Part shown: one piece after another, positions 5,348 to 64,000 of the stretch | Numbering within the stretch: the first letter of the stretch is position 1 | Layout of the letters: each line of letters begins with the position of its first letter | NCBI GenBank assembly: GCA_038087875.1 | Contig: CM075988.1 | Coordinates: 7,938,001 to 8,002,000 of the forward strand | DNA length: 64,000 nt | DNA from: Malacoraja senta | Lineage: Eukaryota | Direction of reading: 5' to 3' | Translations under genes and position numbers: made by a program | Notes under the pieces: model-generated | The model's database searches: none | What the model was told of the DNA's origin: nothing | What the model saw: only the letters and a program-made list of their open reading frames with translations

Positions 5348-6639
5348 CAGCTAGACACACTAACCAGAAGCAGGTGTACTCTGGCAACTCACACACAGGC
5401 ACGGTGCACACATTTGTTCTCATTTCCCCTCCATCAACCTTTGGTACTAGTTCCCACCCTCCAGTCTCCTTCCCCTCATCATCATCCCCCCCCCCTCCCC
5501 CCACACCCACTCAGTCCCCTCGCTGTCTTTCTCAGTCCCGCCATCCTCCAAATCCCATTTCTTCTTCACACACTTTCCTTTACTGGAAACTGACCTGCTG
5601 CCCACTCAGCACCAACCTTAGCAGAACTGTCTATCCCTGGGGATGGTATTGGGAACATCCCACCTCGTCTGGGCTTTGGTATACAAGAGTGAGTGAGGAC
5701 GTCCATCCCACAGTGCATGTAGCTTGGATGGCTCAGTGCCCCATCATTCACTGCCACACAACTCAGTCAAGTGCTTCACTTCTACACATTTGGCGAATAC
5801 AGAGAGCAAACACTACAAAAGACTTGCCATTTCTTTTGCTCTGTCACATCTCAGATATGCCCCAGTGTCTTTGCTAACATGGTGTTCGGTTGCTGATATA
5901 TGGTTGATATATGCTTCACCAGGGCCGTGCGTTCCTTTTCATATTCTGACTCTAACTCTCTAGAGTTCAGCCTGAGTTTAAATGTGTAAATCAGTTTTCT
6001 GGGCTTGAAGGGTCTCCTGTAAAGGCAACTTGCATGTTTTCTGAATAGGATAGTGTTGTGATATCTTCTGTGAAGGTCACTACTGAGACTGGACAGTGCA
6101 CTGTTTGTAGTAAACATACCGATGGATTTGTAAGCCAGCAGTCTCTGATGACAATGCACCTTTTGAAAGCTGTCACTTGATGCGATAGGTCACTAACTGT
6201 TGTGTCATTGATTCTAAGCGAGTGAACACATCGACACACTGACTGACAATCCCCCTGCTCCACACTGCAGCAGACACTCACTAAATCAGCAGCTAGACTG
6301 AAGAAGGGTCTCGACCTGAAACGCCACCCATTCCTGTTCTCCGGAGATGCTGCCTGTCCCGCTGAGTTACTCAAGCTTTTTGTGTCTATCTTCAGCAGCG
6401 AGACCAAGTCTGGACTTGATCTGGCTAATAATCAAATTAAATAAAACATTAAAACAGCTGACAGCTAAGTAGCCAAATTAATCGTCATTCATTGTAAGTA
6501 AGATTTATAATATTTGGGCAAACTAATTAACTTAAAAAACCCATTTATTATTAAATGATGATAATAAACTGTGTAATATTCCTCTGTCTGAAGAAGGGTC
6601 CCGACCCCAAAGTTCACCTATCCATGTTCTCCAGGAATG

Positions 6640-8475
6640 CTATTCTCTACTCCCAATTCCTCCGTCTATGCCGCATACTGGAACATTCGCATGTCCTCAT
6701 TCTTTAGGGAACGGCGGTTCCCCTCTCCCATCATAGTTGAGGCCCTCACTCGTGTCTCCTCGGTACCCTGCAGCTCTGCACTTGCTCTCCCTCCCCCTAC
6801 TCGCAACAGAGACAGTCGCCCTAGTCCTTACCTTGCACACCATCAGCCATCGCATACAACACATAATCCTCCAAAATTTCCGCCACCTCCAACGGGATCC
6901 CGCCACTAGCAACATTTTCCCATCTCCACCCCACTCTGCCTTCCGCAGAAACCATTCCCTCAGCAACTCCCAAGTTAATTCATCCCTTCCCACCCAAACC
7001 ACCCCCTCCCAAGGTACCTTCCCCTGCAACCGCAGAAGATGCAACAGCTGTCCTTCCTCGACTCTGTCCACGGACCCCGACAGTCCTTTTAGGTTAGGCA
7101 GAGGTTCAGTTGCTCCTCCTCCAACCTCATCTGCTTTTTATTTTTTTATTTTTTTTATTTGAATATAACTTTAATTGTCATTCAGGTATACACATAGACA
7201 CAGTGCACATTGAACGAAATTTCGTTGCATTGACTCTTCAAAGTAGCAGCAGAATATAACATTTATATCAGGCGATCAGTAAAAGTGCTTAGTGTATAGT
7301 TAAAAAAGGAAAGTTTTTTAAAGTGGCAATGTATAAGAAAGTTCTAGCATCGGTTTGATTGTGAGTTCAATAGTCTTATGGCCTGGGGGATGAAGCTGTT
7401 GCAGAACCTGGTTGTCCCGCTCTTCATGCTGCGGTACCTCCTCCCAGAGTTCAGCAGTGTAAACAGTCCATATTGTGGGTGTGTGGGGGCTCTGGTAATG
7501 CCCTTAGCTCTTGTCAGACAGCGTTTGTAACCAATGTCCATGATGGAAGGAAGAGAAGTCCCAATGATTTTTTCCGCTGTCCTCACCACTCTCTGAAGGC
7601 ACTTCCAGTCCGCAGCTGTACAGCCGCCGCGCCACATAGAGATGCAGCTGGTCATGACTGATTCAATCGTGCTTCTGTAGAATGTGGTGAGGATGGTAGG
7701 GTGGAGGAGGTGTGATCTTCTCATCCTGCGGAGGAAGTACAAACGCTGCTGTGCCCGTTTTACCAGAGATGTGATGTTTGTAGTCCAAGTTAAGGTATTA
7801 CTGTATCCATTGTTCAAGATGTGGACTCTTATACATCGGCGAGACCAAACGCAGACTGGGCGATCGTTTCGCGGAACACCTTCGCTCAGCCCGCGTGAGC
7901 CAACCTGATCTCCCGGTTGCTGGACACTTTGATTCTCCTTCCCATTCCTACACAGGCCTTTCTGTCCTCTGTCTCCTCCATTGTCAGAGTGAGGCTCAAT
8001 GTTATATGGAGGAAAAGCATCTCATATTGCTGCGGAGGGGTTTCGGCCTGAAACGTTGCCTATTTCCTTCGCTCCATAGATGCTGCCTCACCCGCTGAGT
8101 TTCTCCAGCATTTTTGTTTACCTCATATATTGCACTTGGGCAGCTTACAGCCCAGTGGTATAAATATTGATTTCTCTCACTTCAGGTAGCCCCGGCATTC
8201 CCTCTCTCTCTATCCCTCCCCCACCCAAGTCGCATGAGCTTCTCATTTTCACCCTACAAACAGCTTACAATGGCCTGTTTCCTTTATCATTGTTACTATT
8301 TTGCATATCTTTCATTCATTTGTTCTTTATCTTTCCACATCACTGTCTTTTTCTCTCGTTTCCCTTATCCCTAACCGGTCTGAAGAAGGGTCTCGACCCG
8401 AAACATCATCCATTCCTTCTCTCCACAGATGCTGCCTGTCCTGCCAGGTTACTCCAGCTTTTTGTGTCTATCTCC
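6640..8475 (+). mobile_element. Penelope-like element 3' part (RT C-term + GIY-YIG endonuclease + terminal module), decayed and interrupted
   Basis: Peptides LVLTLH..IQHIILQNFRHLQRDPATSNIFPSPP..GTFPCNRRRCNSCP, resuming after 7797 with YIGETKRRLGDRFAEHL. Homologous to 21903-23615. Confidence 0.9.
7136..7797 (-). mobile_element. 5'-truncated Rex1/Babar LINE (ORF C-terminus, DUF1891-type) inserted in the Penelope copy
   Basis: ORF 7344-7817: LTWTTNITSLVKRAQQRLYFLRRMR..FYRSTIESVMTSCISMW..LQRVVRTAEKIIG..SGRRYRS..SFIPQAIRLLN. T-rich tail at 7136-7160. Confidence 0.9.
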
Positions 8476-8498
8476 AGGTGTCTGTTGTGTCTGCCTGA

Positions 8499-61700: not shown

Positions 61701-61734
61701 AATATACACAAGTTTCCATTAGTAGGGCATTAGA

Positions 61735-62052
61735 AATGCACCTCGTATTCCGCTTGGGCAGTCTACATCCTGGGGGCATGAACATTGAATTCTCCCAATT
61801 CTGCTAGCCCTTGCTGTCCCCTCCCCTTCATCAGCCCTCTGGTTGTCTCCTCCCATCCCCCAGCCCTCGGGCTCCTCCTCCGCTTTTTTTCCTTTTTTCC
61901 TTTCTTCTCCCCACCCCCTATCAGTCTGAAGAAGGGTTTCGGCCCGAAACGTTGCCTATTTCCTTTGCTCCATAGATGCTGCTGCACCCGCTGAGTTTCT
62001 CCGGCATTTTTGTGTACCTTCGATTTTCCAGCATCTGCAGTTCCTTCTTTAA
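61735..62052 (+). mobile_element. Penelope 3' terminal fragment nearly identical to 23332-23615, with hammerhead-like motif at 61926
   Basis: Direct comparison shows only scattered differences from the 3' end of the 21903-23615 copy. Confidence 0.9.
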
Positions 62053-64000
62053 CAGTTTCCATTAGTTATTTTGTGGATAAAGTCTAATATAGACTTAAAA
62101 TGACAGAACTTAGTCAGATAATGCATTTTGAAACTTGTTCTTATCTCTTAAATATACTGGTCAGTGGAACAGATCGAGCATTTTGTTGATTGAACAAGTC
62201 CAGTAGATTCCATTGCTGCGTGACATTCCAGTGAGTCAGGCAGGAACTCTGGACAGAGAGTATTGTGATGTGGGCCAGTATTATTGGAACAATAAGCCGC
62301 CAATGTGCATGGTCTATTATTAAAAGAAAGTTTCCTGTTTTGACAGCTGAATCTGGGGGGGACGTGCGGATATTTTTTCTCCTTTGTATTTGAGCAAAGA
62401 CTTGTACAGGAACATTATTGTGTGTCAAAGCAGGCCTCATTCTCTCGTGTATACTCAACACTTTATACTACAGTCAGTCCCTCAAAATCAATCAGGGTGC
62501 ATACAGGCAAATGGGGAAAGTGAGCTTGGTGAGAGAGTTGTAATTATGTTGATGAGTGCATTACTCAAGTAAAGTAAATTGCCTGTCTATAATTTCTGCA
62601 GGGGTAATTTAGACTTTGAAAGGTTCAGCGTACACAGGCCCTTTGACCCTAGAGTCCGCGCCGAACAGCGATCACCTCGTAAACGACAAGGGGTACACCA
62701 CGAAGTCGTACTCTGGGTACACTACACACTTGGGACGTTTTACAATTTTTACTGAAACCAATTCATCTACAAACTCTCTATATTTCTCTCACCTACTGCA
62801 TTTATGGGGACAATGTCTTGCCCATGGGAATGTGGGATGTCACCCTGTGCGTGCAGCACTACCTCCTCCCAATGGTTGGTTTCATTCATGAGTGCTCCCA
62901 TATGAAATAACTACATCAATCACTGCACCAAATAAGCAAGATGCAATGTCAAGCTTGCACGGCAGTCTAAGGCACTGTTTGGTTGGATTAAATGCACGGG
63001 TAGAGGAATTGGCTTCATCGGGGAGAAGCAGATTGGCCAGGATTGCAGTTCCCAATCATTATCTTGCAACTCTCTGTTGGAAGGTGTTCATGAGGATTTT
63101 TGTGTCTCACTTTCACGCTAGATTTAATAAACATTTCGACAGGTACATGGATAGGACAGGTTTAGAGGGATATGGGCCAAACACAGGCAGGTGGGACTAA
63201 TGTAGCTGGGACATGTTGGCCGGTGTGGGCAAGTTGGGCCAAAGGACCCAAGGGCTGTATGACTATGACTACGAGTTTCTGTGTTTTCATCTCTGGTCTT
63301 TGTCCAACCATCTGCCGAGCACCCCCTCCCCCCCCCCCCTCACCTGTATCAACCTGTTATCTGCCAAGACACCAAGTGCTGGAGTACCATCTGAAGAATG
63401 GTCCCTACCTGAAACACCGTATCTTCTTCTTCTCCAGAGATGCTGCCTGACCCGCTGAGTTACTCCAGCACTTTGTGTCTTCCCTTGTGGCTACATGATC
63501 ACTGGTCATTGTGTGAGAACAGAGTTTCTCATTGCTGTTCATATGGCCTCCAACGGAATCAGCAGTCCTTGCCATAGAGGATCATCCATGAAGAACCGCC
63601 ACATATGAAATTGTGCAGGGATTGTGGAAATGTGGGGATTAATTCGAGAGACCCTAGATCCATCAGGCAATCAAAGTGAGCATCTATTTTAAAAAAAATT
63701 GTGCGATTTTGGATGTTGCCAGCAAGGCTATATTTGCTGTCTTCAGACTTTACAGATACACCGCAGAAACAGGCCCTTCAGCCCACCGGATCCGCGCCGA
63801 CCAGCGATCACCCCATAACACTAGCACTATCCGAAACACTAAAGACAAGTTTAAATCTACCAAAGCCAATTACCCTACAAACCTCTGCGTCTTTGCAGTG
63901 TGGGAGGAAATTGGAGCACCAGGAAAAAAGTCACGTGGGCTCAGGGAGAATGTACAAACTCCATACAGACAGCACCCGTAGTCTTAGAGTCGTAGAGCAT

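What the first reader, a model, noticed from the sequence alone, without database searches (positions are those of the whole stretch)
6298..63485. Massively dispersed Penelope-derived module carrying a minimal hammerhead ribozyme core
Seen: a roughly 100-150 bp module (ctgaagaagggtctcgacccgaaacgtcacccattcc..gatgctgcc..gctgagttactccagcattttgtgtctatc) occurs 20 or more times, e.g. near 6298, 6588, 8380, 10509, 13307, 25882, 29798, 36668, 39034 and 41599, and on the minus strand near 47137 and 54125. It is homologous to the 3' terminus of the RT/GIY-YIG Penelope copy (23524). It begins with CUGAAGA, an extra A, a stem-loop GGGU-CUCG-ACCC, then GAAAC and GUC. The variant GGGU-UUCG-GCCC keeps the stem through a U-G pair. 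Known: PLEs carry minimal hammerheads with a palindromic, near-absent helix III (ACGU here) that work as dimers. Inference: many copies start within a few nt of the ribozyme core, so this may be a SINE- or retrozyme-like non-autonomous family mobilised by Penelope RT. That would seed possibly self-cleaving motifs about every 3 kb, including in the putative intron. Caveat: helix I pairing is only 2-4 bp.
Basis: partly seen in the sequence, partly recalled or inferred. Interest (0 to 1): 0.8.

Follow-up and report, generated by a model that had tools for sequence, protein, structure and literature searches.

The report
Penelope leader fragments with minimal hammerheads
This ~100-135 bp repeat is the ribozyme-bearing end piece of Penelope-like jumping genes in a cartilaginous-fish-like genome, and its very many short copies are likely dead-end by-products made when the element's copying enzyme starts inside the RNA and runs off its predicted start, not a separate self-cleaving parasite.

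Summary
The repeat is real: 52 hits in the window, 553 in 1.4 Mb sampled from the genome, 0 in reversed controls; about 770,000 copies by extrapolation, about 3% of the DNA. It is the hammerhead-plus-tail segment of several Neptune-type Penelope-like families. It ends every long copy and, in full-length copies, forms the leader before the ATG. The minimal hammerhead is genuine by covariation in distant relatives, but helix I is only 2 bp and most copies have decayed; PLE minimal hammerheads are known. Only 3 start at the cleavage site, and no short-only lineage exists, so a SINE or retrozyme is not supported. The boundary lies on a conserved initiator-like motif, with a position-specific excess of G (G:A 1.15 against 0.68). 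Best reading: internal reverse-transcription starts (+93, +129) run off a capped RNA 5' end, giving strong-stop-like insertions. The transcription start and ribozyme activity are untested.

The parts
21906..23617 (+). 5'-truncated, broken family-A Neptune-type PLE: RT, linker C-x4-C-x2-C motif, GIY-YIG region, pyrimidine-rich 3' UTR, module at its 3' end
   Evidence: RVT_1 E 3.8e-6; 40 scored genome copies 96-97% identical, 7208 candidates; in-frame stop and frameshift seen
23519..23616 (+). Family-A module (UUCG loop, U-G pair, GUU triplet); initiator-like TCAGTCT at 23519-23525; hammerhead core 23524-23551; ends at the +93 site
7855..8473 (+). 3' end of a family-B PLE (GIY-YIG end, 3' UTR, CUCG-loop module at 8376-8473), interrupted by a family-A module at 8030-8121
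   Evidence: GIY-YIG hit in 7784-8095; 8727 candidates, flanks match as one piece in other copies; RT/EN homology upstream in other copies
36665..36746 (+). Short family-B copy starting at A(-3) with intact core 36668-36695; followed by an older copy 36763-36852
25878..25979 (+). Short family-B copy starting G-AGTCTG (G at -4, the position enriched genome-wide)
6294..6392 (+). Short family-B copy
10507..10601 (+). Short family-B copy starting at about -1
13211..13400 (.). Head-to-head inverted pair joined at the palindrome around the start of the core
29794..30020 (+). Long-upstream family-B module followed by a partial and a further module (short direct tandem)
31323..31457 (+). Partial module directly followed by a full module
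39030..39105 (+). Family-B module with its 3' UTR upstream, intact core
41595..41684 (+). Short family-B copy starting at A(-3)
47049..47143 (-). Older, decayed module
49751..49848 (-). Short copy, core mutated
52286..52420 (+). Short family-B copy with the ~36-nt tail (ends near +129)
54032..54129 (-). Module at the end of another PLE 3' fragment, intact core
60121..60303 (.). Head-to-head inverted pair
61803..62055 (+). Family-A 3' fragment: end of ORF, 3' UTR, module and tail
63389..63480 (+). Older short module

Best explanation
The module is the hammerhead-plus-tail segment of several Neptune-type Penelope-like elements, present at the 3' end of long copies and before the ATG of full-length copies, and the many short copies are likely dead-end run-off cDNAs that begin at internal start sites and stop at a predicted transcription start just before the ribozyme core. 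Steps (position 0 = C of CUGA): (1) shown: copies end at +92-95 or +128-131 and carry 7-15 bp target-site duplications, so the PLE enzyme inserts them; (2) inferred from the anole PAc work: these ends are the two internal RT start sites; (3) shown: most short copies begin at -6..+3; (4) inferred: the RNA is capped at A(-3) or G(-2) of a conserved YCAGTCT initiator, so RT starting in the 5' leader reaches the RNA end after about 95 or 130 nt and is joined to the target, sometimes after a template jump; (5) inferred: priming on both nicked strands gives head-to-head pairs with the tail on one arm; (6) inferred: long copies come from the second, 3' copy of the segment in read-through RNA or from a jump. 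The hammerhead is under selection only in the source elements, likely needs dimerisation and protein help, and does not set the ends of the copies.
For: Full-length layout: module, ATG at +163, ORF, module again 4069 and 4280 bp on (L057, L055). Family B has RT/EN upstream. 3' ends of 190 solo copies: 104 at +85-104, 77 at +115 or beyond, 9 other. TSDs: 18 of 30 family-A solos against 2 of 86 in the control; 19 of 93 against 9 of 275 for B. 5' ends of 154 young solos: 68 at -6..+3, 4-11 in each neighbouring 9-10 nt bin, 40 long. Genome-wide exact counts for family A fall most at -2>-3 (0.813) and -3>-4 (0.85), against 0.967 per nt inside the core and 0.943 upstream. G:A before A(-3) is 829:723, against 165:241 at control position 0 (odds ratio 1.67, p 5e-6); none of the 20 G copies fetched had the long upstream; an extra G marks capping in full-length L1 insertions (PMC11702581, one passage). 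YYANWYY at -5..+1 in 42 of 49 long copies whose sequence diverges from -6 outward. 61 of 72 fully classed head-to-head pairs have exactly one tail arm. Short and long labels mix on the tree (35 changes against 36.1 shuffled; positive control 1 against 33.3). PAc starts RT internally on uncleaved RNA and extends both strands (PMC11167929).
Against: No direct evidence of a transcription start. In the one RNA run laid (another organism, about 6% of the run) the only start pile on this strand is 5 molecules at -31, not -3. The boundary is spread over about 8 nt. Of 9 G-start solos with a TSD, only 1 shows a clean single extra G; in 3 the G lies within the TSD and 5 have longer extras. YCAG after a polypyrimidine tract is equally a 3' splice site, and in D. 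virilis an intron ends exactly at helix I, with the start about 120 nt upstream. Of 14 distant relatives' motifs, only 3 show TCAGT near the core. About 40% of family-A copies extend upstream, and how they arise is not shown.
Confidence: 0.6

Rival explanations
1. Same element and same internal start, but the RNA begins further upstream and RT is blocked at the AG of an unspliced 3' splice site (bound splicing factor) or at a fold edge.
For: Polypyrimidine tract plus YAG in all subfamilies; D. virilis intron ends at helix I; PLEs keep introns; boundary is diffuse; 5 RNA starts at -31 in a related organism.
Against: No spliced form among 308 places tested against family-A and B upstream sequence (exons under 12 nt and other subfamilies not covered); the candidate donor of family B is not kept in family A; a block does not predict a position-specific G excess.
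Confidence: 0.2
2. The short module is a self-propagating SINE-like element: short copies are transcribed and re-copied in trans by the PLE enzyme.
For: Defined 5' end, TSDs, very high copy number, initiator-like motif inside the unit; non-autonomous PLE derivatives are described (PMC8557442; bioRxiv 2026.07.22.740005).
Against: No short-only alleles (25 columns, smallest p 0.058) or clades; every major subfamily has long copies; PAc needs RNA 3' of the RT start, which short copies lack. The tree uses about 89 columns and 124 copies, so a minor lineage could be missed.
Confidence: 0.12
3. Ribozyme cleavage and circular RNA define the unit, as in non-LTR retrozymes.
For: Genuine hammerhead architecture; some direct tandems (27 of 551).
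Against: Only 3 of 154 solo starts at +27..29; no pile of read ends at the site; tandems are short and partial; the one long array seen is a tRNA-gene array carrying a single insertion; PAc uses uncleaved RNA.
Confidence: 0.04
4. Ordinary random 5' truncation from the 3' end, with no special boundary.
For: 5' truncation is normal for PLEs; RT and 5' body are rare in the sample.
Against: Six- to seventeen-fold peak at -6..+3 over neighbouring bins; step in exact counts; same loose-end positions in other organisms' reads and contigs.
Confidence: 0.04

Closest known systems
Minimal hammerheads of metazoan PLEs (Cervera and de la Pena 2014, PMC4209133; abstract, results, discussion read)
   Same: Type I core, extra nucleotide between 9 and 10.1, G10.1-C11.1, palindromic 15.2-16.2 without loop 3, located in the pLTR, mostly found as dispersed single motifs
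   Different: Helix I is 2 bp (4-5 in their S. mansoni set, 2 in D. virilis); they count about 4,000 in coelacanth and 9,000 in Xenopus, against about 50,000 intact and 770,000 total modules extrapolated here; the parts read do not report a fixed 5' boundary
PAc, Poseidon of the green anole (Frangieh et al. 2024, PMC11167929; main text read, figures and GenBank file not visible)
   Same: Two internal RT start sites giving an optional 30-40 nt tail, both strands extended, hammerhead near the ORF start, no RNA ends at the cleavage site
   Different: Here the clade is Neptune-type and the ATG lies at +163, after the tail; the text read does not describe run-off insertions with a capped 5' end, though its Fig. 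S2 could show them
Neptune clade of EN+ PLEs (Craig et al. 2021, PMC8557442; passages and one section read)
   Same: RT, CX2-5CxxC linker, C-terminal GIY-YIG; partial tandems, inverted 5' copies, tail on one end
   Different: Clade assigned by the linker motif only, which Nematis shares; no reference tree was built
Non-LTR retrozymes (bioRxiv 10.64898/2026.07.22.740005; three of five parts read)
   Same: PLE-derived, hammerhead-bearing, non-coding, many monomers
   Different: Defined as tandem repeats with a hammerhead in each unit; here 5% are tandem and the unit is not cut at the cleavage site
Minus-strand strong-stop DNA of LTR elements (recalled, no call)
   Same: RT starts near the RNA 5' end and runs off it, giving a short product that repeats the 3' terminal sequence
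   Different: Primed by nicked target DNA rather than tRNA, and inserted directly; analogy only

Membership tests
EN+ Penelope-like element | Single ORF with RT and C-terminal GIY-YIG | tested here: met
   RVT_1 and GIY-YIG hits below curated cut-offs on L057; 1607 homologues, best from sharks and rays
EN+ Penelope-like element | pLTR by partial tandem; inverted 5' copies; optional 30-40 nt tail | tested here: met
Neptune clade | CX2-5CxxC linker before GIY-YIG | tested here: met
   C-x4-C-x2-C; criterion
Neptune clade | RT phylogeny against named PLE references | not tested
   No named reference set was fetched
Minimal type I hammerhead | CUGANGA, extra nt, helix II, GAAA, palindromic helix III, UH | tested here: met
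   15 motifs in 80 relatives' loci, 0 in shuffles
Minimal type I hammerhead | Covariation in helices I and II | tested here: met
   6 of 7 pairs change on both sides, score 0.692 against 0.199, 0 of 500 shuffles; the motifs were picked by a pairing descriptor, which favours this result; within the genome only one-sided changes
Minimal type I hammerhead | Helix I of 4-5 bp | tested here: not met
   2 bp, as in the D. virilis variant
Minimal type I hammerhead | Match to Rfam hammerhead models | tested here: not met
   none at E<=10
Minimal type I hammerhead | Self-cleavage | not testable with these tools
   Needs an assay; dimer fold unfavourable in ViennaRNA
SINE-like non-autonomous family | Own lineage separate from the autonomous partner | tested here: not met
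SINE-like non-autonomous family | Defined ends with TSDs | tested here: met
SINE-like non-autonomous family | Own promoter and transcript | tested here: inconclusive
   Initiator-like motif; reads lie on both strands and 94% run on into unlike sequence
Non-LTR retrozyme | Tandem units each with a hammerhead | tested here: not met
   27 of 551 tandem
Non-LTR retrozyme | Unit ends at the cleavage site; circular RNA | tested here: not met
   3 of 154 starts at +27..29; circles not testable

The most novel reading that the evidence does not exclude
Penelope-like elements make a strong-stop-like cDNA: target-primed RT starts about 95 or 130 nt from the capped 5' end of the RNA, runs through the uncleaved hammerhead to the cap, and then either jumps (rebuilding pLTRs, tandems and inverted arms) or is inserted as is. 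This genome holds hundreds of thousands of such products, about 3% of its DNA, and they map the element's transcription start and RT start sites at single-base level.
Probability: 0.45. Interest if true: 0.72.

Novelty: new member of a known kind. Interest (0 to 1): 0.5.

Why it matters
How PLEs rebuild their pseudo-LTRs and why they form tandem and inverted insertions is an open question. If the short copies are run-off products, the genome gives a large record of the reaction: both RT start sites, the RNA 5' end, a cap trace and one-arm tails. It also explains why solo minimal hammerheads are so common in animal genomes without invoking a SINE or a host function, and warns that a very abundant ~100 bp repeat in cartilaginous fishes could be mis-annotated as a SINE or microRNA hairpin. 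The ribozyme itself is a known kind.

Tried and rejected
Rfam scan: no hammerhead; only sub-threshold microRNA matches on inverted pairs. Spliced-template idea: 0 of 308 places join upstream element sequence to T(-1). Cleavage-defined ends: no excess. Selection on dispersed copies: non-CpG departures 5.2% in the core, 8.7% in helix II, 6.4% downstream; CpG 24.7% core against 19.0% downstream; copies were picked for an alignable core, which favours the core, so no real conservation is shown. Folding: monomers do not fold as hammerheads, z from -1.9 to +1.2. Sequencing runs: no RNA holder listed on record; one raw RNA run of another organism was added by study. Host gene: none found; strand bias in the window 33:19, p 0.07. 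Lunse et al. 2017 is not held; known only through a review's passages. PAc supplementary figure 2 gave no text and its GenBank file is unreadable; they may bear on whether the 5' clustering is already visible in print. Earlier scan findings: none returned. The script stopped after printing its counts; the analysis was rerun.
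Full report
Positions are given relative to the C of CUGA (0); the hammerhead cut would fall between +27 and +28.

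Observation. The core pattern occurs 19 times in the window against 0.00 expected. A profile from 17 window copies gives 52 hits, 46 at E<=1e-4, and 0 in the reversed window. In 140 stretches of 10 kb taken at fixed coordinates on contigs C1-C19, there are 553 hits and 0 in the reversed control, covering 3.2% of bases. Extrapolated to 1.94 Gb that is about 770,000 copies; small contigs were not sampled, so this is rough. One family-A 22-mer alone has 22,293 exact matches. The closest named protein relatives are from sharks and rays, which suggests a cartilaginous fish host.

What it belongs to. Family A (UUCG loop) ends the broken RT/GIY-YIG copy at 21906-23617; the 40 genome copies scored are 96-97% identical. 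Two of 20 long loci fetched show the whole layout: a partial upstream copy, the module and tail, an ATG at +163, the ORF, a pyrimidine-rich 3' UTR and the module again, 4069 and 4280 bp on. So the module is both the 3' end and the 5' leader. The protein has RT, a C-x4-C-x2-C linker and GIY-YIG, which fits Neptune or Nematis. The commoner CUCG-loop form is also a PLE end: at 7855-8473 it follows a GIY-YIG frame, and RT or EN homology lies directly upstream in many of 30 loci. Further subfamilies share the module and differ upstream of -6.

The ribozyme. Rfam has no match, but the anatomy fits the published minimal PLE hammerhead: extra base after A9, G-C first pair, palindromic helix III. In 80 loci of distant relatives a descriptor found 15 motifs, 0 in shuffles, 13 on the coding strand. 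On 14 aligned motifs (12 relatives, 2 window copies), 6 of 7 pairs change on both sides, score 0.692 against 0.199; the descriptor selected for pairing, so this is partly built in. Within the genome the changes are one-sided. Helix I is 2 bp here and 2-5 in relatives. The modelled hammerhead dimer lies 17 and 22 kcal/mol above the best fold, against 5.5 and 11 for two relatives (the model ignores core contacts). Of 258 scored copies, 83 keep the core and 39 keep core and both helices; decay in the core is like decay elsewhere. Published motifs are inactive as monomers and weak as dimers, PAc cuts only with its protein, and 8 of 9 Xenopus dimers did not cut. Most copies are therefore likely inert.

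Ends of the copies. Of 551 copies, 358 are solo, 163 sit in inverted junctions, 27 are tandem and 3 touch an edge. 3' ends are bimodal, near +93 and +129, matching the two RT start sites and tail of PAc. TSDs of 7-15 bp flank 18 of 30 family-A and 19 of 93 family-B solos, against 2 of 86 and 9 of 275 in controls. Head-to-head pairs number 101 and tail-to-tail 11; 61 of the 72 pairs with both arms classed have the tail on one arm only (29 pairs with a truncated arm left out). Among 154 young solos, 68 start at -6..+3, 40 extend beyond -25 or share upstream sequence, neighbouring bins hold 4-11, and 3 start at +27..29. Exact family-A counts run 22,293 (+4), 19,491 (0), 16,683 (-2), 13,555 (-3), 11,527 (-4), 8,596 (-9), with the steepest loss at -2 to -4; some loss at each step is mutation. 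Loose ends in an RNA run of another organism fall at -6 and -2 and at +92/93 and +128.

Is it a SINE? Short and long copies share all 25 diagnostic columns (smallest p 0.058). On a tree of 80 short and 44 long copies the label changes 35 times against 36.1 shuffled, while family A/B changes once against 33.3. This argues for by-products of the same source elements.

What sets the 5' boundary. An initiator-like YYANWYY (consensus recalled) covers -5..+1 in 42 of 49 long copies, with A(-3) as its +1. The base before A(-3) is G 829, A 723, T 476 times when it is not the native C; at control position 0, G:A is 165:241, odds ratio 1.67, p 5e-6. Before G(-2), 15 of the 30 fetched non-A copies have G, some through repeats of the element's first bases. 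An extra G marks capping in L1. Against this: only 1 of 9 G-start solos with a TSD shows a clean extra G; RNA data give no start at -3 and 5 molecules at -31; and the same letters read as a 3' splice site, where D. virilis has one. No spliced copy was found among 308 places.

Mechanism. Shown: element layout, two 3' ends, TSDs, 5' peak, shared alleles, one-arm tails. Inferred: capped start at -3/-2, RT start in the 5' leader, run-off and joining, template jumps behind extras and partial tandems, long copies from the 3' copy of the segment. I put this at 0.6, a block at a splice site at 0.2, a SINE-like lineage at 0.12, cleavage-defined units and random truncation at 0.04 each.

Prior work. Dispersed minimal hammerheads from truncated PLEs are known (PMC4209133), as are tails and inverted copies (PMC8557442, PMC3846280) and internal initiation (PMC11167929). 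Nine answered searches of the held library listed no paper whose title or abstract start describes this family or a fixed 5' boundary; 'Penelope-like' with 'strong-stop' and two other terms returned 0. Subscription papers, Repbase entries and figures were not visible. Read: PMC4209133 parts 1-2 of 4; PMC11167929 parts 1-2 of 4 and two supplements without useful text; bioRxiv 2026.07.22.740005 parts 1-3 of 5; passages plus one section each of PMC2377424, PMC3846280 and PMC8557442; passages of bioRxiv 2021.04.23.441226, PMC6765202 and PMC11702581.

Verdict. A real, very abundant, known kind of motif in a new host family. The SINE or retrozyme reading is not supported. The fixed 5' boundary with a cap-like trace is the part worth following. 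Interest 0.5.

Noticed in passing
L272 (G000:C1:3871000-3880999; array seen over about 3.87-4.04 Mb): Tandem tRNA-gene array (Ala, Arg; about 2-2.45 kb period) in which most units carry the same short family-A module, apparently one insertion amplified with the array
   Followed up: partly
window 8030-8121: Family-A module inserted into the GIY-YIG end of a family-B element
   Followed up: partly
window 61921-62050 and L057:3248-3395: With the tail present, the predicted fold pairs the purine-rich core (+2..+9) with the end of the tail, which would switch the hammerhead off (z -0.5 and -1.9)
   Followed up: partly
window 15198-15500 (-): Weak tyrosine-recombinase (Phage_integrase) hit, E 2e-4, possibly a DIRS- or Crypton-like fragment (labels recalled)
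   Followed up: no
window 7347-8021 (-): Frame with an ALKBH8_N hit, probably a fragment of another retroelement (reading inferred)
   Followed up: no
window about 3180-5350: Very long (AC)n tract of about 2.2 kb
   Followed up: no
L049, L054, L055, L057: The family-A ORF has a variable proline-rich repeat region before the RT domain, so unit length differs between copies
   Followed up: no
L204, L207, L213, L215: 5' junctions that repeat the element's first bases, as expected if RT re-primed after reaching the end of its template
   Followed up: partly
L321, L323, L326: Distant relatives with TCAGTCT directly before the core and a 4-bp helix I
   Followed up: no
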